From: a virus
Taxonomy: Duplodnaviria; Caudoviricetes
Direction: 5' to 3' (one strand)
Virus record (IMG/VR): IMGVR_UViG_3300010885_022465
Coordinates: 532 to 64,531 of that record
DNA: 64,000 bases
The position numbers were made by a program, and so were the translations under genes. Positions within the stretch are counted from its first letter, which is position 1. Every line of letters begins with the position of its first letter. The notes beneath the pieces were generated by a model that saw nothing but the letters and a program-made list of their open reading frames with translations, did not search any database and was not told the DNA's origin. Below, in pieces: positions 1 to 30,851 of this stretch.

Positions 1-48
1 CACCGAGTTATAACTCTGTACTGGTTAGTAAAATGTACTGTGTACGTG

Positions 49-56
49 CAAATATA
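49..56 (-). promoter_or_regulatory. Bacteroidota -7 promoter element firing leftwards out of the window
   Basis: CAAATATA on + is TATATTTG on -, matching the TAnnTTTG consensus. Confidence 0.55.
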
Positions 57-100
57 TATTTTTTTTTCTTGCAATCACTTGTCAGTTTAATTAAAGTAAT

Positions 101-108
101 TATATTTG
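101..108 (+). promoter_or_regulatory. Bacteroidota -7 promoter element
   Basis: TATATTTG directly before a hairpin/terminator leader. Confidence 0.7.
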
Positions 109-111
109 TAA

Positions 112-205
112 CAGATAATAAGAGTATCTGACAACTTAGGACATTTGCCGAAAGGCTAATATATAACCAAAAGAAAAACCCTGTACTCTTATTACAGGGT
201 TTTTT
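112..205 (+). ncRNA. Promoter-proximal leader RNA: 5' hairpin, GNRA hairpin, intrinsic terminator with complementary loop
   Basis: CAGATA-ataagag-TATCTG (112-130); GCC-GAAA-GGC (147-156); AAAAACCCTGTA-ctcttat-TACAGGGTTTTT (174-204); the two 7-nt loops are exact complements. Confidence 0.6.
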
Positions 206-209
206 GTTT

Positions 210-430
210 TATACCCTATTCCAAATAAAGCAGGTCTTAGCCTGTATGACAAGGCTCAACTAACTCAAAAGGAAAGTCGAACATCTTAAATTATAGGTAG
301 TACTTTCGTAAACTTGTGTGCCCTGTAAGCCGAACGACAAACTCAAAAACTCAACTGAAGCAGTTATGGTGATGGTCAACAGTTATCTTTTATCTAAGGG
401 GATAAGGGGTAACTTGTTTTTCATCACCTC
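210..430 (+). ncRNA. ORF-free structured region ending in a long G-U-rich hairpin
   Basis: GGTGATG...CATCACC closes an irregular hairpin at 368-428 with several G-U pairs valid on +; smaller hairpins near 231-258 and 354-366. Confidence 0.4.
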
Positions 431-481
431 ACTTTAAATCTAAAAATCTAACAAAAGCAGTTATTAGTTAATAATGTTTTC

Positions 482-489
482 TATATTTG
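482..489 (+). promoter_or_regulatory. -7 promoter element, probably leaderless transcript
   Basis: TATATTTG 4 nt before the GTG at 494. Confidence 0.55.
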
Positions 490-493
490 TCTA

Positions 494-847
494 GTGAAAA
501 ATAACAGATTAGAAGACATAATCAATAAAGGCAAGGAACATTTTATTGCTAAATTTTTTGTCATGACTTCTATTTTGAATTCCGATGACCATGCAGTAGA
601 GTATCAAGTGTTCTACAAGAGTAAAGGAAAAGGCAGATGGAATCCTCAATGTATTGAATACTCTAACTTGCAATATATTGTTTTAAAGCAGTTTGAGGTA
701 TTTTACTTGAGAGATATATTCGATAATAATTATGAAACAATAGTTTTTAATGAACACGGAAAAATCTACACGCATAAAGAAATAGGATTTAACAAAGAAG
801 GAATCATTCCATTAAAAAACCAAGTAACACTTTTTGAAGATGAATAA
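494..847 (+). CDS. hypothetical protein
   Basis: 117-aa ORF behind a promoter. Confidence 0.6.
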   Translation: MKNNRLEDIINKGKEHFIAKFFVMTSILNSDDHAVEYQVFYKSKGKGRWNPQCIEYSNLQYIVLKQFEVFYLRDIFDNNYETIVFNEHGKIYTHKEIGFNKEGIIPLKNQVTLFEDE

Positions 848-1004
848 AGGGGGTAAAGTTATCGTGAATAAAGATTATGTTGTTGCATGGGAATTTGATA
901 AACAAGAAATTCAAGTTACTTTGATAAAAAATGAAACAACTATCGGTTGGCTTTACGATGAAATAATTGAAGATAACGTTTTGCAACTAACCGATGAGCT
1001 GTAA
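840..1004 (+). CDS. small hypothetical protein (54 aa) reading into the attC-like hairpin
   Basis: ATG overlapping upstream ORF end; MNKGGKVIV...NVLQLTDEL. Confidence 0.45.
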   Translation: MNKGGKVIVNKDYVVAWEFDKQEIQVTLIKNETTIGWLYDEIIEDNVLQLTDEL

Positions 1005-1047
1005 CAAACACAGTACTTTTCAGCTTATTGGTTAATTGCTGTTAGCA
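971..1047 (+). mobile_element. attC-like recombination site
   Basis: Imperfect palindrome from TAAC (974) to GTTAGCA (1041); inner arms AACCGATGAGCTG / CAGCTTATTGGTT. Confidence 0.5.
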
Positions 1048-1074
1048 CCAGTTTTTAATTTTAAATTTAAGTAT

Positions 1075-1338
1075 ATGATAAAATGGATTGAAAGATATAG
1101 TTTCACGGATGAATCTGATGAAATGGGGAGATGGGCAAGAATGGGTGTAGTTAATGGAATAACAATTTGTTGGATTACAAGGGTAAAACATAAATATTGC
1201 ACACATATGTATTTACCAACAAGACTAAGTGATTCACCTCATGAAGTTCAAGTGTTAGATACTTTTGAAGATGCTAAAGAATTTGCATACAATAAACTAA
1301 GAGAATTTGAAGTTAAATTCAACGGTTCTACTTGTTAA
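1075..1338 (+). CDS. hypothetical protein in a cassette-like unit
   Basis: ATG at 1075 after A/T-rich leader; flanked by GTTAGCACCAGTT / AATTGGTGCTAAC. Confidence 0.6.
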   Translation: MIKWIERYSFTDESDEMGRWARMGVVNGITICWITRVKHKYCTHMYLPTRLSDSPHEVQVLDTFEDAKEFAYNKLREFEVKFNGSTC

Positions 1339-1396
1339 TTGGTGCTAACGTGGTATAGGCGCAATAACTTCCCGTATTGATAGAACGCAAAACAAG

Positions 1397-1427
1397 AAAG
1401 CCCTGACGTAATATCAGGGCTTTTTTT
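1397..1427 (+). terminator. intrinsic terminator between convergent genes
   Basis: AAAGCCCTGA-cgtaata-TCAGGGCTTTTTTT. Confidence 0.8.
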
Positions 1428-3462
1428 ATTTATCTAATATTCTAAGAACTTTTCCAGTAGAATCCACTAGAGCTAGTTTCATCCTGTAGTTGGTCTCTTT
1501 ACATTGCACATACCTTTTGAATGTCTTCACCTCAGCCTTAGCCTGTTTAATGTTCTCGGGTTCATACCTTGAATAACATTGAGCATTTATGTATGAGAAC
1601 ACAATCGCGAATATGCAGTCATCATAATCGTACCTAGCATCCGCTGCCTGGTATCTTGTTTGTCTATGTGAGCTTGCAGCTTTCAAATCTTTCTCTACGA
1701 ACGTCTTTAGTTGCTCCCAAAACCATGGAATATTTATTTGTTCGCCATACCCCTCTATTAACTCTTCTAGTTTTGCTAATATACGTGGCGCTGTATTCAC
1801 TTTATTGGATATACCAAACCATTTACCACCATGTGTTTTTAAGTACTCAGGAAGCGATGAATTTGACGTAAATTTGTGCTTAAATCCTAACATTTCCTGG
1901 AAATCTATGTGCATATCACCGATGTTATTCTCCACTAATTCCTTGATTCCACCCCTATTTTCTTGGTCATAATACAAAGATTGCAGTAAAACTTGCAGAT
2001 ATGTCTCTTTAAATTTCTTTTCTCTATGAAAAACTACCGATGCTACGGAGTTTGTTAGGGAATCCCATACGGCACTACACATTTTTGAGTGTCCTGTCTC
2101 TGAATTGATGGGGTCAGTACCTTGATAGAACCTATGTACCCAGCATTCTTTAGCTGGTGGGTGAGTTATTACTACTGTTGAGGTCATAACGTGGTCTCTA
2201 TCTCCTGTGCTCATCCATTTAGCCCCTATAATTCTATATGGAACGTATGAATCAGGTGTAGGTTGCAGTACATCGAATATAGGTTCGAAGTATCCGTAGT
2301 CAATAGGAACTTCCATACCATATATTTGATGCAACCTGTCATTACAATAGTTTACAGGAACAAGAGTTTTTGATTTACGCAAGAACATATCGTCAATGGT
2401 AATTGGGTATGCCTGGTGAAACTGAACTTTAGCAATCTCTCCCTGTCTTGTGCCTTCTTGTGCCTTGTATGCTTTAATCTCGTTATTAATAAACTTATCT
2501 GTCACCCCTCTTCGTGCATATGCGTTAAAGAACAATGGTATAATTCCATACTTAAAGTTTCTTTTCTGCCATTCGGATAAACACTGCTTAAACTCGGACT
2601 CAAATACTGAACCCCCTTTGTCCATCTCTCCACCTGTACCCCAAGCCATGAATTGTTGTTGCATTATCATCTCGTCTTGTTCAGGGTCGTACTTAAATAG
2701 TGCAGGTCTACCTTCACGCATCATCTCACCAAAGATTTCAAACAATCCAATCTCATCGACAAACACGCATGACGGAGAACCCCCATTGATTGCTGTGACG
2801 CTAGGACTATCTACCTGAAACATTGAAGCACCCCCTTCATCTTTACCTTTCTTGTCCCCTTTTTTCTCCATGTTCATTAATGAAGCTGTCCAGTTCTTTA
2901 CTTCTTGAGACATAAAGGCTGGTAGTTTTGTGAACGCCCACTTTACTTTATCACGAAATATTTCTTCCCCCTTGTCTTTGGAGTGGGTAATGAATTTTAT
3001 GAAGTATGATTTGTTTAGGTTTACGCGTTTCATACCTGCTAGGCACATGGTAGTTGTAAATCCAATCTGACGAGCCTTACCAATCATTGTTGAGTATCCG
3101 CAGTCGTATAGGAATAACAGTATCTTTTGTGCATCCCATGCTTGGTATTTAAGTTTACCATCTAGCGCAGTCTGTTCTTTTATCCATCCGTATTTATTGC
3201 AGAAGTATAGTGTGTTGTCATTACATTTCTGTATCTCATCCTCTAGCCATTCTATCTGTTCGGACTCTGTGTTGAAGTCTTGAATTTCCGTTAGGTCATC
3301 AAGCAACTGTTCTGCATGTAGGCAATATGTTTCAAAAGGTTCGTATGTTGTTCTGTACTGATACCCTCTATTCATGGAGTCTATCCATTTTATGAATTCT
3401 TCAGGATAGTCAAATTGTTTATGTGATGGATACCAGTCTGTTGTTTCTAGTTGTTTAGTCAT
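1426..3462 (-). CDS. terL: terminase large subunit
   Basis: Walker A GKARQIGFTT, Walker B VFVDEIG, coupling motif GTG, nuclease motifs GTDPIN and DDCIFA. Confidence 0.9.
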   Translation of the reverse strand: MTKQLETTDWYPSHKQFDYPEEFIKWIDSMNRGYQYRTTYEPFETYCLHAEQLLDDLTEIQDFNTESEQIEWLEDEIQKCNDNTLYFCNKYGWIKEQTALDGKLKYQAWDAQKILLFLYDCGYSTMIGKARQIGFTTTMCLAGMKRVNLNKSYFIKFITHSKDKGEEIFRDKVKWAFTKLPAFMSQEVKNWTASLMNMEKKGDKKGKDEGGASMFQVDSPSVTAINGGSPSCVFVDEIGLFEIFGEMMREGRPALFKYDPEQDEMIMQQQFMAWGTGGEMDKGGSVFESEFKQCLSEWQKRNFKYGIIPLFFNAYARRGVTDKFINNEIKAYKAQEGTRQGEIAKVQFHQAYPITIDDMFLRKSKTLVPVNYCNDRLHQIYGMEVPIDYGYFEPIFDVLQPTPDSYVPYRIIGAKWMSTGDRDHVMTSTVVITHPPAKECWVHRFYQGTDPINSETGHSKMCSAVWDSLTNSVASVVFHREKKFKETYLQVLLQSLYYDQENRGGIKELVENNIGDMHIDFQEMLGFKHKFTSNSSLPEYLKTHGGKWFGISNKVNTAPRILAKLEELIEGYGEQINIPWFWEQLKTFVEKDLKAASSHRQTRYQAADARYDYDDCIFAIVFSYINAQCYSRYEPENIKQAKAEVKTFKRYVQCKETNYRMKLALVDSTGKVLRILDK

Positions 3463-3549
3463 TTTACGATTGTAATGTAGTATTTAATTAAGGCAAATGA
3501 AAATATTCCTATTAAGACGAGTATCATCATCAATTCGTCCTCAGGGTCT

Positions 3550-4098
3550 TTATTCATCATCTTCCATTGGATTGTATTCCGTGCTACCATCTAGTGCTTG
3601 TTGCTCCATAGCCTTATACGAAGTTACGCATAAAAACAATTTTTTCATTGTTCCTTTGTATAGGTGTATAGGGTTTACCATGTATATCCTATGGTTTTTT
3701 ACTTTCTCCATTCGTATAACATCTTCGACTAGTAGCTGTTTGATTGCTGCTTGAGCATACCTACTACTTACCCCTGTGCATTTTATGATGTCTCTAATTC
3801 CGTATCCTTTGACTTGGTTTCCGTAGTTCATTACACGCGCAAAGAAACGCAATATTCGTAGCGACGATGGCGTTAGTTTTTCCTGAATATTTATCCCCTC
3901 CTGGAATGTTACATAGTACTTTAGTTTCTTTCGTTTGTTTATGGAGTTAATTATTTCTGTTGCTTGTGACTCATACGCTTCGGCAATTTTTACAAATTCA
4001 CCTTTTGCGTTTTTCATGTATAAGTCAAAGTCTTTCTGTCTTGTTGCTGCTATCCTATCGGCTTCTAGCAATAACATATCGAATACTATATCTGTCAT
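3550..4098 (-). CDS. RepL-like winged-helix DNA-binding protein (possible small terminase or regulator)
   Basis: HTH IRDIIKCTGVSSRYAQAAIKQL and YMVNPIHLYKG as in RepL-type proteins; next to terL. Confidence 0.6.
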   Translation of the reverse strand: MTDIVFDMLLLEADRIAATRQKDFDLYMKNAKGEFVKIAEAYESQATEIINSINKRKKLKYYVTFQEGINIQEKLTPSSLRILRFFARVMNYGNQVKGYGIRDIIKCTGVSSRYAQAAIKQLLVEDVIRMEKVKNHRIYMVNPIHLYKGTMKKLFLCVTSYKAMEQQALDGSTEYNPMEDDE

Positions 4099-4547
4099 TA
4101 TTTTCCTGGTTTATGATTTGGGTTTCCTGACCAAAAGGCATCGCACGCTCTATCAAACTTCGGCATTACACAAGATGTCAATAGTGTCAATAGTGTCAAT
4201 AGTGTCAACTTGGAAAGTATTTGTGTTACGTTGTATCTAATTTTCCTTAGTCTCCCTGTTCGTTGTTTATGTTCTTCGTTTACCATGAACAATGCGCTAT
4301 TTAGAAATCTCTCAAATTCCTTTATGCTCATGTTTCCTTTGAGTTTGTTACATTCTCCGCAGGCTACTACTTTGTTATCGTTACTAAGTTTACCTCCCCT
4401 ACTCTTTGGGTACAGGTGGTCGACAGTTCTTGAATGTACGTCTAACTCCCTTAGGCAATATGCACATACGGAAAGGTTTACTCCTAGCTTACTAAATTCG
4501 TGTTCCATTTTGTTGTTCATGTACGTGGTCAATATATTTTCTTGCAT
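4098..4547 (-). CDS. HNH endonuclease
   Basis: CAYC...TVDHLYPKSRGG...N...ACGECNKLKG. Confidence 0.85.
   Translation of the reverse strand: MQENILTTYMNNKMEHEFSKLGVNLSVCAYCLRELDVHSRTVDHLYPKSRGGKLSNDNKVVACGECNKLKGNMSIKEFERFLNSALFMVNEEHKQRTGRLRKIRYNVTQILSKLTLLTLLTLLTSCVMPKFDRACDAFWSGNPNHKPGK
4176..4208. repeat. 9-bp tandem repeat, (TGTCAATAG)x3 plus partial copy
   Basis: Read directly; encodes LTLLTLLTLLT in the HNH C-terminus. Confidence 0.9.
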
Positions 4548-4926
4548 CTGCTTTGCTCATTAGTACTGCTGTATGTTTATTTTTTTTCATCCAGTCATTT
4601 ACTAGGTGGTATGTATCTGCGTGGTGGTTACTTTTCTTCTGTTCAGTGTATAGCACGGACAGGGTATCTTCGTTTGTGTGGTCGAACCATTGTTTATTTA
4701 CGTACACATACTGTTGTGTTTTATATCCACCAAAATCATTCTCTACAACTCTAGTTCCGAATATTGTTTTCACGTATCCATAGTCTCTTATGTCATCATG
4801 TAGTTTTGCTTCATGATACATTTTCTCTCCTTTAAGATTTGTCACATCTAAATATTCAAATATTGTTTTGTTGTTAGCTCCAACATACAATACAAAATCA
4901 TTCTCCTTAAAATCTACCTTTATCAT
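4492..4926 (-). CDS. hypothetical protein
   Basis: 144-aa ORF in coupled minus-strand operon. Confidence 0.65.
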   Translation of the reverse strand: MIKVDFKENDFVLYVGANNKTIFEYLDVTNLKGEKMYHEAKLHDDIRDYGYVKTIFGTRVVENDFGGYKTQQYVYVNKQWFDHTNEDTLSVLYTEQKKSNHHADTYHLVNDWMKKNKHTAVLMSKADARKYIDHVHEQQNGTRI

Positions 4927-5168
4927 TAATCTAATCTTTTAAATCCGTTATTAGTTAGTGTGAATCTAGCTTGTCCATTCACCCATGTATTCCCTTCTAC
5001 GTTTACCATCCCTGTCTGTCTAGCTACGTCTAGGTACTTCTCCATATTGATACCCTCCCCCTTATGAAAATGCTCTACTAATCTAATTAGTAATCTACAC
5101 TTCTCATCGGGAAAACAATCCTTATTGATAATATCCATTATCTCTTTCTCTAATATTGCAGCACTCAT
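4926..5168 (-). CDS. hypothetical protein
   Basis: 80-aa ORF, stop/start overlap with neighbour. Confidence 0.6.
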   Translation of the reverse strand: MSAAILEKEIMDIINKDCFPDEKCRLLIRLVEHFHKGEGINMEKYLDVARQTGMVNVEGNTWVNGQARFTLTNNGFKRLD

Positions 5169-6712: not shown

Positions 6713-7192
6713 ATGAAAGCAAGTATCAAAACATTACAAAGTGCAAACAATGCGTTGAAAGCTGAAAATAAAAGTTTCAGTGGTGCACTTAATGACATTA
6801 AAAAGTTCTACACAAAAGAGGACAAAGTAATGGCAAAAGTTTTATTTCCCGAAAAATTCTCTAAAGAGTGGGAACAAAAAGCATGTAGTTATTTGAGTGA
6901 AAAACCACAATTACCTACAAAAAACAACCCAAACGGGTTAAGTAAAAAACAACTATACCTAAATTCTGAAAAATACAGATTAGAGTTATTGAGAGAAGAA
7001 TTTGAGGCACACGCAATGTTTGAAACGCATAGAGACGAACAAGACGTGGAACAAGCTGAAAAATTAGCTCAAAAAATTACCAATGAAATATTAGAAAGTG
7101 CAGTGTACAAGGACTTCCTTAAAACGAAGAGATACAACTTCTCTCCGTATGCAGTGGGAATGCTAGCACACGCTATGCAAAACAAAAAATAA
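6713..7192 (+). CDS. hypothetical first early protein
   Basis: 159-aa ORF with typical A-rich leader AAATTATATATC-ATG. Confidence 0.8.
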   Translation: MKASIKTLQSANNALKAENKSFSGALNDIKKFYTKEDKVMAKVLFPEKFSKEWEQKACSYLSEKPQLPTKNNPNGLSKKQLYLNSEKYRLELLREEFEAHAMFETHRDEQDVEQAEKLAQKITNEILESAVYKDFLKTKRYNFSPYAVGMLAHAMQNKK

Positions 7193-7234
7193 GTAAGACG
7201 GTCTAACGAGGGGGTTCGACTCCCCCTCTTACTT
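7191..7234 (+). ncRNA. tRNA-like mini-element (acceptor stem, D-loop-like linker, T-arm; no anticodon arm)
   Basis: AGTAAGA-cggtctaacga-GGGGG-TTCGACT-CCCCC-TCTTACT. Confidence 0.55.
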
Positions 7235-7255
7235 CTAATCATTAAATTATACAAC

Positions 7256-16899: not shown

Positions 16900-17643
16900 A
16901 TGGAAAAGATGCAATGGTTTAAGTTCTCAATTTCCGAATGGAAGATGGGGAAGATTCAGAAGTGCACCAAAGAAGCTAAGTCAGCCTTTATGGAGTTGTG
17001 TTGTTTGTATTGGATAAATGAAACCAAACTTTCTATTGAAGATGCAATTATCGAATGCGATGAAGAGAACTACAGAAATTTATTATCTAAAAAAGTAATC
17101 AAGGAAGTAGATGGATTTATTAATATTTATTTTTTAGATGAACAGTTTGAAAATATACTAGAAAAATCTGTAAAGGCAAGAGAATCAGTAGAAAAGAGAT
17201 GGTCAAAACGTAATACGAACGTATTACAGTCGAATAACGAACGTAATACAAACGTAATACGACCGAATTACGAACGTAATACAGAAGAGAAGAGAAGAGA
17301 AAAAGAATATACTTTCGATTTTAAAAAATCTCTTTTGTCTTTAGGTTTTGATTCTGCTCTAGTAGATGAATGGCTGAAAGTTCGTAAGGCTAAAAAACTT
17401 ACTAATACACAAACAGCATTCAATAAGTTTGTAAAGCAAGTTGAACTTACAGGTGTAGATAAGAATTTAGTCCTAGAGAAATGTGTTGAGAAAAGTTGGG
17501 GAGGATTTGAAAGCTCCTGGATTAATCAATCTACATTTTCTAATGCTAAAGTAGAGGTTAAGATATTAGGTGTTACTGCTGACGGAGAAGAAGTCACAGA
17601 CCCTTTAGTGTTTCACGTGTATAAACAAATGGGTAAATTATGA
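16900..17643 (+). CDS. replication initiator (lambda O / replisome organiser type)
   Basis: MQWFKF N-terminus, internal iterons, C-terminal EWLKVRKAKK...EKSWGGF domain; upstream of helicase. Confidence 0.75.
   Translation: MEKMQWFKFSISEWKMGKIQKCTKEAKSAFMELCCLYWINETKLSIEDAIIECDEENYRNLLSKKVIKEVDGFINIYFLDEQFENILEKSVKARESVEKRWSKRNTNVLQSNNERNTNVIRPNYERNTEEKRREKEYTFDFKKSLLSLGFDSALVDEWLKVRKAKKLTNTQTAFNKFVKQVELTGVDKNLVLEKCVEKSWGGFESSWINQSTFSNAKVEVKILGVTADGEEVTDPLVFHVYKQMGKL
17207..17305. repeat. Replication origin: 11-bp-phased iterons AACGTAATAC plus purine tract
   Basis: Copies at 17207, 17218 (variant), 17240, 17251, 17273; degenerate at 17229, 17262; then AGAAGAGAAGAGAAGAGAAAAAG. Confidence 0.75.
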
Positions 17644-20857: not shown

Positions 20858-21085
20858 ATGAAAAAATATTGTTTCACGTGTGGTAAACGATTACCACTTA
20901 TAATGTACCATAGAGATGATTCTAAATATCAATTAAAATCAAATAAGGGTAAGACTATCGAATGCAGATTTTGTACGCTTAAACGAAACTTAAACGATAA
21001 AGGGCTTATGAATAGAATAGATGGAAAATTTCAATTCGTGCCAATGACTAGGTTTGAAATAATTAAATACTTTTTTAAAAGATGA
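20858..21085 (+). CDS. CxxC zinc-binding hypothetical protein
   Basis: MKKYCFTC...CRFC. Confidence 0.55.
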   Translation: MKKYCFTCGKRLPLIMYHRDDSKYQLKSNKGKTIECRFCTLKRNLNDKGLMNRIDGKFQFVPMTRFEIIKYFFKR

Positions 21086-21252
21086 AATGTCCTAATTGCA
21101 AGAAAGAAACAAGTTGTGGATGCAATTCCTGTAAGGATAGACCTCACAGTTATGAGCGTAACGTTATGAAAGGAGACTTTATAACCTGTCCTTACTGCGA
21201 AAAAACAGAGCATTGCGACACCTGGTTAAACAATGAATATAAAGTATTATGA
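21082..21252 (+). CDS. small Cys-rich protein (56 aa)
   Basis: MKCPNC..CGCNSC..CPYC..HC; ATGA-coupled on both sides. Confidence 0.55.
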   Translation: MKCPNCKKETSCGCNSCKDRPHSYERNVMKGDFITCPYCEKTEHCDTWLNNEYKVL

Positions 21253-30821: not shown

Positions 30822-30851
30822 AAAAAAAAAGCCTGTATTACTCTACAGGCT
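30822..30851 (-). terminator. intrinsic terminator
   Basis: A9-GCCTGTA...TACAGGC-T on +. Confidence 0.7.

What the first reader, a model, noticed from the sequence alone, without database searches (positions are those of the whole stretch)
101..205. Kissing-loop terminator, copy 1: 5' hairpin loop is the exact complement of the terminator loop
Seen: after a TATATTTG promoter the transcript folds CAGATA-[ATAAGAG]-TATCTG, then a GAAA hairpin, then a terminator AAAAACCCTGTA-[CTCTTAT]-TACAGGGTTTTT. The two 7-nt loops are perfect reverse complements, and the match extends to AATAAGAGTA/TACTCTTATT, which would invade both stems. Inference: a self-contained attenuator or small RNA in which the 5' end locks or disrupts its own terminator. 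I do not recognise it as a named riboswitch class.
Basis: partly seen in the sequence, partly recalled or inferred. Interest (0 to 1): 0.75.

Follow-up and report, generated by a model that had tools for sequence, protein, structure and literature searches.

The report
Phage RNA with covarying kissing loops
A small RNA unit of a freshwater phage starts with a hairpin whose loop base-pairs with the loop of its own terminator hairpin, and relatives keep this match while the loop letters change completely, so the pairing is real and selected.

Summary
A TTG-N19-TATATTTG promoter (79-108) is followed by hairpin H1 (112-130), a GAAA hairpin (147-156) and a terminator hairpin T1 (173-205). The H1 and T1 loops are exact reverse complements. 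The match runs 11 nt (116-126 with 184-194).

Six homologues were found in uncultured-phage and metagenome contigs. In all 7 sequences the two loops are complementary, with 6 different loop pairs: ATAAGAG/CTCTTAT, GTAAGAG/CTCTTAC, GTAGTAG/CTACTAC, CCGATC/GGTCGG (one G.U), ATACCAG/CTGGTAT and CTGGAAC/GTTCCAG. Non-cognate loops do not pair. G.U pairs place the structure on the promoter strand.

The module is not self-contained. It is always fused, with no promoter motif in between, to a more conserved structured RNA of about 260 nt (window about 206-465) that matches no Rfam family.

Two phages with 97-99% identical portal-like and terminase proteins carry unrelated H1-to-T1 cassettes. Phages with unrelated terminases share the downstream RNA.

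Best reading: a new phage non-coding RNA whose 5'-terminal hairpin kisses the loop of an internal, probably leaky, terminator. The data do not settle whether this locks the fold, gates read-through or acts in trans as a lineage-specific address. No second copy was found in the window.

The parts
79..108 (+). Promoter P1: TTG (79-81), a 19-nt spacer, then the -7 box TATATTTG (101-108). The predicted transcription start is about 113.
   Evidence: Sequence. The -7 box is present in 7 of 7 homologues. TTG at 18-19 nt spacing is present in 4 of 7. The box lies at -12 to -5 in Flavobacterium (passage of PMC9723704).
112..130 (+). H1, the 5'-terminal hairpin: stem CAGATA/TATCTG, 7-nt loop ATAAGAG (118-124).
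   Evidence: The stem sequence is nearly invariant in 7 homologues while the loop is hypervariable. H1 starts 3-5 nt after the -7 box in 7 of 7.
116..126 (+). 5' partner of the loop-loop pairing: TAATAAGAGTA, that is the loop plus 2 stem bases on each side.
   Evidence: (11-nt complement).
131..146 (+). Single-stranded linker holding the conserved motif UUAGGACAUU.
   Evidence: Invariant in the window, L019 and L020; partly kept in L037 and L023.
147..156 (+). GNRA-tetraloop hairpin GCC-GAAA-GGC.
   Evidence: A GNRA loop with a covarying stem is present in 5 of 7 homologues: GAAA, GAAA, GCAA, GUAA, GUAA. It is absent in L035 and L036. A natural variant changes A151 to T, giving GUAA.
173..212 (+). 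T1, an intrinsic-terminator hairpin: 12-13-bp stem, loop CTCTTAT (187-193), then the U-tract TTTTTTGTTTT.
   Evidence: Stems covary and a U-tract is present in 7 of 7 homologues. The A-tract that would make it bidirectional is present only in the window, L035 and L036.
184..194 (+). 3' partner of the loop-loop pairing: TACTCTTATTA.
206..465 (+). Downstream conserved structured RNA ('RNA2'). Helices: 239-243/252-256; 291-297/322-328; 300-303/318-321 with an invariant loop CUUUCGnnAACUUGUG; 368-374/422-428 enclosing the hairpin T2 (379-417). Direct repeats AAGCAGTT lie at 358-365 and 455-462.
   Evidence: RNAalifold on 7 sequences: 60 pairs, 15 with compensatory changes. Coordinates. 77-98% nucleotide identity among all homologues. 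No Rfam match.
49..56 (-). Divergent -7 box TATATTTG for the leftward operon, which holds a 281-aa protein of unknown family and then the portal gene.
   Evidence: record 580-587, which is window 49-56. Gene start.

Best explanation
The element is the 5' module of a previously undescribed phage non-coding RNA gene. The gene has its own promoter and sits like a 'moron' (an independently transcribed insert) at a boundary of the head and packaging module.

Transcription starts at or within one base of H1, so H1 is a 5'-terminal hairpin. H1's 7-nt loop forms a Watson-Crick loop-loop ('kissing') helix with the 7-nt loop of T1, a canonical intrinsic-terminator hairpin about 60 nt downstream on the same RNA. 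This closes H1, the GNRA hairpin and T1 into one compact three-hairpin fold.

T1 is an internal and probably leaky terminator. Termination would give an RNA of about 95 nt. Read-through would give an RNA of about 350 nt that carries the conserved downstream domain.

Shown: the pairing partners, their covariation, the strand, the fusion to the downstream RNA, and the replacement of the H1-loop-to-T1 stretch as a cassette.

Inferred: that the contact is intramolecular, that T1 terminates partially, and that the contact serves fold or stability and sets the outcome at T1.
For: 1. Covariation. All 7 homologues have complementary H1 and T1 loops, with 6 distinct sequence pairs.
   - Cognate loops form 7 bp, or 6 bp with one G.U in L023. 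Non-cognate combinations form at most 4 bp, except the near-identical window/L019 pair. Duplex energies are -10.5 to -16.5 kcal/mol for cognate loops. They are -5.7 or weaker for non-cognate ones, again except window/L019 (-7.8 and -10.5) and one L020/L019 combination (-6.1).
   - On alignment A8 the kissing helix has 5 of 7 pairs changed on both sides and 88.9% of cells paired, even though L023 and one column of L035/L036 are out of register. The whole structure is 89.0% paired against 76.5% in shuffles (0 of 500 reach it). Slid controls give 28-47%.
2. RNA level and + strand. G.U pairs occur in H1, in T1 and in the L023 kiss. A natural variant changes C112 to U, turning a C-G pair into U.G. 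The -7 box is conserved in 7 of 7 homologues. The middle hairpin keeps a GNRA loop over covarying stems in 5 of 7.
3. H1 is 5'-terminal. It begins 3-5 nt after the -7 box in 7 of 7, and the box lies at -12 to -5 in Flavobacterium (PMC9723704 passage).
4. T1 looks like a terminator in 7 of 7: a G+C-rich stem base followed by a U-tract.
5. No + strand TAnnTTTG lies between T1 and the downstream RNA in 7 of 7. In L023 the spacer between them is almost absent.
6. One 232-nt contig from a lake metatranscriptome library spans window 130-361, across T1. This is weak evidence, because it is a contig and DNA carry-over is possible.
7. It is not a gene leader. In L023, L035, L036 and L037 the next gene is a convergent terminase.
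Against: - No experiment or raw-read data shows the RNA's ends, so the 95-nt and 350-nt species are inferred.
- A nested-structure energy model cannot score kissing. It rates an extended 9-12-bp H1:T1 duplex, which would break T1, as about equal to the two hairpins in 5 of 7 homologues. It is the minimum-free-energy fold in L019 and L037 and also in L020 when the longer stretch is folded. A switch is therefore as compatible with the data as a static lock.
- The H1 stem is conserved in sequence rather than covarying. This suggests something also reads its sequence, such as a protein or a promoter-proximal DNA site.
- Sequence alone cannot tell intramolecular from intermolecular pairing.
- There are only 7 homologues, and three of them (window, L019, L020) share a related cassette.
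Confidence: 0.5

Rival explanations
1. Co-transcriptional switch (cis antiterminator). The H1 loop captures the T1 loop as it emerges. The helix then extends into the tops of both stems to 9-12 bp, which cannot coexist with a closed T1. This lets RNA polymerase read through into the conserved downstream RNA. Whatever modulates H1 (a protein on its conserved stem, temperature, or the RNA's own product) would set the ratio of short to long RNA.
For: - The downstream RNA has no promoter motif of its own in 7 of 7 homologues, so it depends on read-through of a strong terminator.
- The complementarity extends beyond the loops: 11 nt in the window, L019 and L020; 9 nt in L035, L036 and L037; 8 nt in L023.
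- The extended duplex is within about 2 kcal/mol of the hairpin state in 5 of 7. It is the minimum-free-energy fold in L019 and L037 and also in L020 when the longer stretch is folded.
- A contig from an RNA library bridges T1.
Against: - The complementarity is centred on the loop. It leaves the G+C-rich base of T1 untouched, which makes a poor antiterminator design.
- In the window and L023 the hairpin state is favoured by about 9 kcal/mol.
- The extension beyond the loops follows automatically from the two hairpins having the same closing pairs, and is not significant on its own.
- No ligand-binding aptamer is recognisable.
Confidence: 0.2
2. Trans-acting, lineage-specific 'address'. The two loops pair between molecules, not within one. 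Either the terminated short RNA acts on nascent transcripts of the same allele, or the RNAs join head-to-tail into dimers or rings as phi29 packaging RNA does. In the first case the result would be an RNA-based self or immunity control like P4 CI RNA with seqA/seqC, or like P1/P7 c4 RNA.
For: - The loops are hypervariable while the flanks are conserved. L036 and L037 have portal-like proteins 97% and terminases 99% identical, and downstream RNA 98% identical. Their H1-loop-to-T1 cassettes cannot be aligned.
- A natural variant of the window's own phage has 131-233 replaced by diverged sequence of the same length.
- Precedents seen in passages: pRNA loops (PMC4201828); P4 CI RNA pairing with seqA and seqC on the same transcript to cause termination (PMC4825925); the variable specificity loops of c4 (PMC5320573).
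- The RNA always lies next to packaging genes.
Against: - Cassette replacement can be explained by recombination at the conserved flanks, without selection for diversity.
- The RNA is shared by phages whose terminases show no detectable similarity, which argues against a pRNA-like part of a specific packaging motor.
- No Rfam match to pRNA or C4.
- A 34-52-nt linker makes intramolecular pairing easy, and that would compete with pairing in trans.
- The 10-mer has no other target in the phage genome.
Confidence: 0.15
3. A DNA-level feature. The two 7-11-bp arms are inverted-repeat binding sites for a protein, or the ends of an invertible segment. H1's conserved stem would be a palindromic operator over the transcription start.
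For: - The H1 stem half-sites CAGATA/TATCTG are conserved in sequence around a free 7-bp spacer, at +1.
- Inverted repeats bound by one protein would also change in concert.
Against: - Each arm sits exactly in the loop of its own covarying hairpin.
- G.U pairs fit only the + strand RNA.
- Phages with 97-99% identical neighbouring proteins have unrelated arms, and no variable DNA-binding gene lies beside them.
- The four runs laid showed no strand-changing joint.
- The arms are too short and too close (57 bp) for known invertases (recalled).
Confidence: 0.05
4. Chance: an ordinary terminator and an unrelated nearby hairpin.
For: For the single locus, 3 of 100 shuffles of the window produce some pair of hairpins with loops complementary over 7 nt.
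Against: Six different complementary loop pairs occur in 7 homologues, and non-cognate loops do not pair.
Confidence: 0.02

Closest known systems
   Same: A phage-encoded RNA carrying two loops that are complementary to each other. The pairing is kept across relatives although the letters differ (passages of PMC4201828). It is encoded in a phage with packaging genes nearby.
   Different: pRNA loops pair between molecules and use about 4 nt (recalled). pRNA has a three-way junction closed by a 5'/3' helix. No Rfam match here. One partner here is a terminator hairpin. The RNA is shared by phages with unrelated terminases, and the loops differ between phages with 97-99% identical portal-like and terminase proteins.
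P4 immunity (CI RNA pairing with seqA and seqC) and P1/P7 c4 antisense RNA
   Same: Complementary segments lie on one and the same phage transcript. In P4 the pairing causes premature termination (passage of PMC4825925). In c4, variable loops set target specificity and differ between related phages together with their targets (passages of PMC5320573).
   Different: Those RNAs are processed out of a leader and act on other sites of the operon they control. Here the partner is the loop of the terminator itself, no processing is shown, there is no Rfam C4 match, and in 4 of 6 cases there is no downstream gene.
Antisense kissing systems: ColE1 RNA I/RNA II with Rop, R1 CopA/CopT, pT181/pIP501 attenuation (recalled)
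   Same: Fully paired 7-nt loop-loop helices. Loop letters define specificity. In pT181-type systems, kissing decides whether a terminator forms.
   Different: Those partners are transcribed from opposite strands of the same DNA, so they are complementary by construction. Here both loops are on the same strand, and no antisense promoter motif is conserved.
Intramolecular kissing loops of riboswitch aptamers, such as purine L2-L3 (recalled)
   Same: A loop-loop contact within one RNA organises a multi-hairpin fold upstream of, or together with, a terminator.
   Different: Riboswitch loops are conserved in sequence and help build a ligand pocket. Here the loops are hypervariable, form a plain Watson-Crick helix, and one of them is the terminator loop.
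OxyS-fhlA: the terminator loop of an sRNA used for kissing
   Same: Exposed bases of an intrinsic-terminator loop take part in a kissing complex (passage of PMC11979758).
   Different: In OxyS the partner is another RNA, an mRNA. Here the conserved partner is a hairpin of the same transcript.

Membership tests
Intrinsic (Rho-independent) terminator | G+C-rich stem, short loop, followed directly by a U-tract | tested here: met
   T1 has a 12-13-bp stem, a 7-nt loop and UUUUUUGUUUU. The stem and U-tract are present in 7 of 7 homologues.
Intrinsic (Rho-independent) terminator | Transcripts end in the U-tract | not testable with these tools
   Only contigs were available, which cannot show RNA ends. 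One RNA-library contig runs across T1.
Loop-loop (kissing) RNA interaction | Two hairpin loops with contiguous Watson-Crick complementarity | tested here: met
   7 bp in 6 homologues and 6 bp with one G.U in L023.
Loop-loop (kissing) RNA interaction | Compensatory change of the two loops among relatives | tested here: met
   6 distinct loop pairs. 5 of 7 pairs changed on both sides. 0 of 500 shuffles reach the observed covariation score.
Loop-loop (kissing) RNA interaction | Physical formation of the complex, within or between molecules | not testable with these tools
   Needs probing, native gels or a solved structure.
Riboswitch or transcription attenuator | A recognised ligand-binding aptamer | tested here: not met
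   No Rfam family at gathering score. At E up to 10 there were only sub-threshold hits driven by the terminator. No hit in 3 homologues.
Riboswitch or transcription attenuator | An alternative pairing mutually exclusive with the terminator | tested here: inconclusive
   The extended H1:T1 duplex is within about 2 kcal/mol of the hairpin state in 5 of 7 homologues. It covers only the top of T1.
Riboswitch or transcription attenuator | Lies in the 5' leader of a regulated gene | tested here: not met
   In 4 of the 6 homologues where the downstream side is visible, no co-oriented gene follows and the next gene is a convergent terminase.
phi29-type pRNA (Rfam RF00044; accession recalled) | Match to the family model, that is a three-way junction with a 5'/3' closing helix | tested here: not met
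   No Rfam match of any kind.
phi29-type pRNA (Rfam RF00044; accession recalled) | Co-variation with a specific portal and packaging ATPase | tested here: not met
   The same downstream RNA occurs with unrelated terminases. Different loops occur with 97-99% identical portal-like and terminase proteins.
C4 antisense RNA / P4 CI RNA | Match to the Rfam C4 model; processing from a leader; target sites elsewhere in the controlled operon | tested here: not met
   No Rfam match. The 10-mer has no other site in the genome. Processing is not testable here.
Antisense-RNA pair (ColE1, R1, pT181, type I toxin-antitoxin par) | A convergent or overlapping antisense promoter, and for par a toxin reading frame | tested here: not met
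   No conserved minus-strand TAnnTTTG within 420 nt; single unshared matches occur in 3 of 7. The A-tract that makes T1 bidirectional is present in only 3 of 7. Indels of 1 and 8 nt in the downstream region exclude a conserved reading frame.

The most novel reading that the evidence does not exclude
The hypervariable, self-complementary loop pair is a lineage-specific RNA 'address'. The short RNA released at T1 would recognise only transcripts or RNAs carrying the same allele, through loop-loop kissing. It would thereby control read-through into a conserved effector RNA that very different freshwater phages share. That would make it an RNA-only self/non-self or immunity device, with alleles exchanged as cassettes between otherwise 97-99% identical phages.
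Probability: 0.15. Interest if true: 0.85.

Novelty: new variant of a known kind. Interest (0 to 1): 0.72.

Why it matters
- Covariation of a tertiary loop-loop contact this clean is uncommon: 6 unrelated 6-7-nt loop pairs in 7 sequences, each matching only its own partner.
- One partner is the loop of an intrinsic terminator. I found no description of such a cis arrangement in the papers searched (listings). Those searches do not cover subscription journals.
- The module heads a structured RNA of about 350 nt that matches no Rfam family. That RNA is 77-86% identical in nucleotides between phages whose terminases are unrelated. Many lake and river metagenome runs also hold a small share of the sampled words of window 1-5000. 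Only 4 runs were laid on the sequence, and 3 of them covered this region.
- This points to an RNA acting on something common to the hosts, carried as an independently transcribed insert.
- The loop pair gives a simple experimental handle: loop mutants and compensatory double mutants can test termination control, RNA stability and possible allele-specific interaction. It is also a natural set of orthogonal kissing pairs for RNA engineering.

Tried and rejected
- Exact-stem search for T1 in IMG/VR gave 16 loci. None has homologous flanks, judged by eye.
- A combined H1+T1 stem pattern gave 0 hits.
- GenBank phages gave no DNA or protein match.
- The single-protein search for loci found none.
- Two further IMG/VR patterns added only unrelated hits: 9 of 11 and 2 of 4 stretches.
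- The bacterial genome collection gave 0 hits with the RNA pattern and 0 with the protein alignment.
- Covariance model R1, built from 3 sequences, did not find or correctly align the diverged L023 module. L023 was therefore placed by hand from the sequence. The 7-row MAFFT alignment A8 leaves L023, and one loop column of L035/L036, out of register, so the counts are conservative.
- Bidirectional-terminator or antisense-RNA idea: dropped. The upstream A-tract is present in only 3 of 7 homologues, and no conserved minus-strand promoter motif exists.
- Small ORFs in the region: dropped, because of indels that are not multiples of three.
- A GAAA tetraloop receptor in T2: the CUAAG motif is not conserved.
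- The terminator at 30830-30851 resembles T1's stem but simply ends a small ORF.
- Run X3 laid nothing, and X24 left parts of the stretch uncovered. Neither is taken as evidence.
- Supplementary files of papers were not consulted.

Full report
**What is there**

The window is bases 532-64531 of a 64,531-bp virus record with a 120-bp terminal repeat, so the record is probably circularly permuted. The finding lies in a 510-bp gap without genes. To its left, on the minus strand, a 281-aa protein of no known family opens an operon that also holds the portal gene. To its right are three small plus-strand ORFs, and then a convergent gene for a 678-aa terminase-like protein.

The gap holds three exact TATATTTG motifs, the Bacteroidota -7 box: one pointing left (window 49-56), one at 101-108, and one at 482-489.

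- TATATTTG at 101-108, preceded by TTG at a 19-nt spacing;
- H1, CAGATA[ATAAGAG]TATCTG, at 112-130;
- GCC-GAAA-GGC at 147-156;
- T1, a 12-13-bp hairpin with loop CTCTTAT and a U-tract, at 173-212.

The complementarity runs 11 nt, 116-126 against 184-194.

**Is the single locus beyond chance?**

Only moderately. The fold is clearly better than shuffled sequence: z = -3.9, and 0 of 200 shuffles fold as well. The 10-mer occurs only at these two sites. Of 661 perfect-stem hairpins in the window, this is the only nearby pair with complementary loops.

However, 3 of 100 shuffled windows also contain some pair with 7 complementary loop bases. Rfam has nothing: 0 matches at gathering score in the whole window, and only sub-threshold hits driven by the terminator at E up to 10. 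No tRNA was found.

**Relatives**

GenBank phages gave no match. The 281-aa protein has 9 relatives in the large protein collection, at 89-40% identity.

An alignment of these proteins found two IMG/VR contigs at 50% identity, L019 and L020. Both carry the element at the same place and on the same strand relative to that gene. Conserved blocks of the downstream sequence then served as search patterns. These gave one metagenome contig, L023, and three more IMG/VR contigs, L035, L036 and L037. Other patterns and other collections added nothing.

**The loops covary**

| Source | H1 loop | T1 loop |
|---|---|---|
| window | ATAAGAG | CTCTTAT |
| L019 | GTAAGAG | CTCTTAC |
| L020 | GTAGTAG | CTACTAC |
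| L023 | CCGATC | GGTCGG within AGGTCGGA (6 bp, one U.G) |
| L035 and L036 | ATACCAG | CTGGTAT |
| L037 | CTGGAAC | GTTCCAG |

(Loops.)

In a register-free comparison of all against all, cognate loops form 7 bp, or 6 bp in L023. Non-cognate loops form at most 4 bp, apart from the window and L019, which differ by a single pair.

On the 7-row alignment the kissing helix has 5 of 7 pairs changed on both sides and 88.9% of cells paired. This holds even though L023 and one column of L035/L036 are out of register. The whole structure is 89.0% paired against 76.5% in shuffles (0 of 500 reach it). Sliding the partners by 1-3 columns gives 28-47%.

T1's stems also covary. The middle hairpin keeps a GNRA loop (GAAA, GAAA, GCAA, GUAA, GUAA) over changing stems in 5 of 7 homologues. 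G.U pairs in H1, in T1 and in the L023 kiss fit only the promoter strand. A natural variant in a lake run turns C112-G130 into U.G and changes GAAA into GUAA. This is RNA structure under selection, not chance.

**Anatomy of the transcript**

The -7 box is present in 7 of 7 homologues. In Flavobacterium psychrophilum the box lies at -12 to -5 (passage of PMC9723704). H1 starts 3-5 nt after the box in all 7, so H1 is the 5'-terminal hairpin of the RNA.

T1 has a G+C-rich base and a U-tract in 7 of 7. The upstream A-tract that would make it bidirectional is present in only 3 of 7, so T1 works on the plus strand.

**The module is not alone**

In all 7 homologues T1 is followed by about 260 nt that are better conserved than the flanking proteins: 77-86% nucleotide identity between lineages and 97-98% within the L035-L037 group. 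RNAalifold finds 60 pairs there, 15 of them with compensatory changes. They include a hairpin with the invariant loop CUUUCGnnAACUUGUG (window 300-321) and a helix GGUGAUG/CAUCACC that encloses the second terminator-like hairpin, T2.

No Rfam family matches this RNA in the window or in three homologues. No plus-strand TAnnTTTG lies between T1 and this RNA in any of the 7. In L023 the spacer is nearly absent. The simplest reading is one transcription unit with T1 as an internal terminator.

One 232-nt contig from a lake metatranscriptome library covers 130-361, across T1. That is a weak hint only, because contigs show neither RNA ends nor strand, and DNA may be present in the library.

**Genomic setting**

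In L023, L035, L036 and L037 the unit is followed by a convergent terminase large-subunit gene (phrog_38). In L035-L037 it is preceded by a portal-like gene whose stop lies 4 nt before the -7 box. It is therefore not a gene leader.

The window's terminase-like protein shows no similarity to that of L036 (E = 3.7), yet the downstream RNA is 78% identical. The RNA thus moves between unrelated phages, and it sits at boundaries of the head and packaging module with its own promoter.

**A replaceable cassette**

L036 and L037 have portal-like proteins 97% identical and terminases 99% identical, and downstream RNAs 98% identical. The stretch from the H1 loop to the end of T1 cannot be aligned between them. 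A variant of the window's own phage in a lake run has 131-233 replaced by diverged sequence of the same length.

Both loops travel together in this cassette, between conserved flanks: the promoter plus the H1 5' arm on one side, and the U-tract plus downstream RNA on the other.

**Mechanism**

What is shown: the two loops are selected to pair, on the RNA, on the plus strand.

What is inferred: I take the contact to be an intramolecular kiss that closes H1, the GNRA hairpin and T1 into one compact 5' domain. T1 would act as a leaky terminator, giving an RNA of about 95 nt and a read-through RNA of about 350 nt (confidence 0.5).

A switch is the main rival (0.2). An extended H1:T1 duplex of 9-12 bp, which cannot coexist with a closed T1, is within about 2 kcal/mol of the hairpin state in 5 of 7 homologues. 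It is the minimum-free-energy fold in L019 and L037 and also in L020 when the longer stretch is folded. The downstream RNA also needs read-through. Against the switch, the pairing is centred on the loop and spares the strong base of T1, and the hairpins win by about 9 kcal/mol in the window and L023.

A trans or 'address' role (0.15) would explain the cassette diversity. It has precedents in pRNA, in P4 CI RNA and in P1/P7 c4 RNA (passages). But recombination at the conserved flanks explains the diversity as well, and sharing of the RNA between unrelated packaging machineries speaks against a pRNA-like part.

A DNA-level reading (0.05) fits only the sequence conservation of the H1 stem. That conservation remains unexplained and may mean that a protein reads the stem.

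**Comparison with known systems**

It works like known kissing-loop systems, but it meets the membership criteria of none:
- No Rfam model matches.
- There is no antisense partner.
- There is no aptamer.
- In most cases there is no downstream gene.

Paper searches for a cis kiss between a 5' hairpin and a terminator loop listed nothing of the kind (listings). These searches cover only open-access papers and preprints.

**Verdict**

The functional consequence is still open. The element is a new variant of a known kind, and it heads an undescribed phage RNA. Interest 0.72.

Noticed in passing
window 206-465 (also L019, L020, L023, L035, L036, L037): A conserved structured RNA of about 260 nt follows T1. 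It shows 77-98% nucleotide identity, has 15 compensatory pairs and an invariant loop CUUUCGnnAACUUGUG, and matches no Rfam family. Phages with unrelated terminases share it. It may be the more important discovery.
   Followed up: partly
window 340-365 and 444-462: Two direct repeats (..CAAC..AAGCAGTT) flank the T2 domain. They change in concert between lineages: AGGTAGTT twice in L023 and AAGTAGTT twice in L035-L037. This suggests one common partner for both.
   Followed up: no
window 131-146 and 21083-21096: The conserved single-stranded linker of the 5' module (UUAGGACAUUU) is exactly complementary over 11 nt to the first codons of a small cysteine-rich ORF (ATGAAATGTCCTAATTGC...). Matches with up to 1 mismatch occur at chance level (7 found, 7.7 expected), so this is only a lead for a trans target.
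   Followed up: partly
window 7186-7236: A tRNA-like minihelix: a perfect T-arm (GGGGGTTCGACTCCCCC) enclosed by an 8-bp stem (AAGTAAGA/TCTTACTT). Neither ARAGORN nor Rfam calls anything there. It could be a tRNA remnant, an attachment-site relic or a tRNA-like element.
   Followed up: partly
window 17207-17294: A run of 11-nt tandem repeats (AACGTAATACG-like), arranged as 33-nt units. It resembles iterons, the repeated sites of a replication origin.
   Followed up: no
window 3550-4098 (-): The 182-aa protein just upstream of the terminase-like gene has a weak RepL-type domain (Pfam PF05732, E = 3.7e-05). It may be the small terminase or another DNA-binding protein.
   Followed up: no
window 1-56 and record bases 516-531 (L001): The leader of the leftward 281-aa gene is also strongly conserved in L019 and L020 (GTACCGAGTT..CTCTGTAC..), more so than the protein itself (50% identity). 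It may be a second regulatory RNA element.
   Followed up: no
window 494-847 (+): The first small ORF probably starts at GTG 494, only 5 nt after the third TATATTTG, judging by homology of its N-terminus with the L019 ORF. It would be leaderless, or else translated from the long read-through RNA.
   Followed up: partly
L035 and L036, between H1 and T1: Their cassette carries an extra TATATTTG inside the module and a non-GNRA middle hairpin (GTTGT-CCTTAA/T-ACAAC).
   Followed up: no
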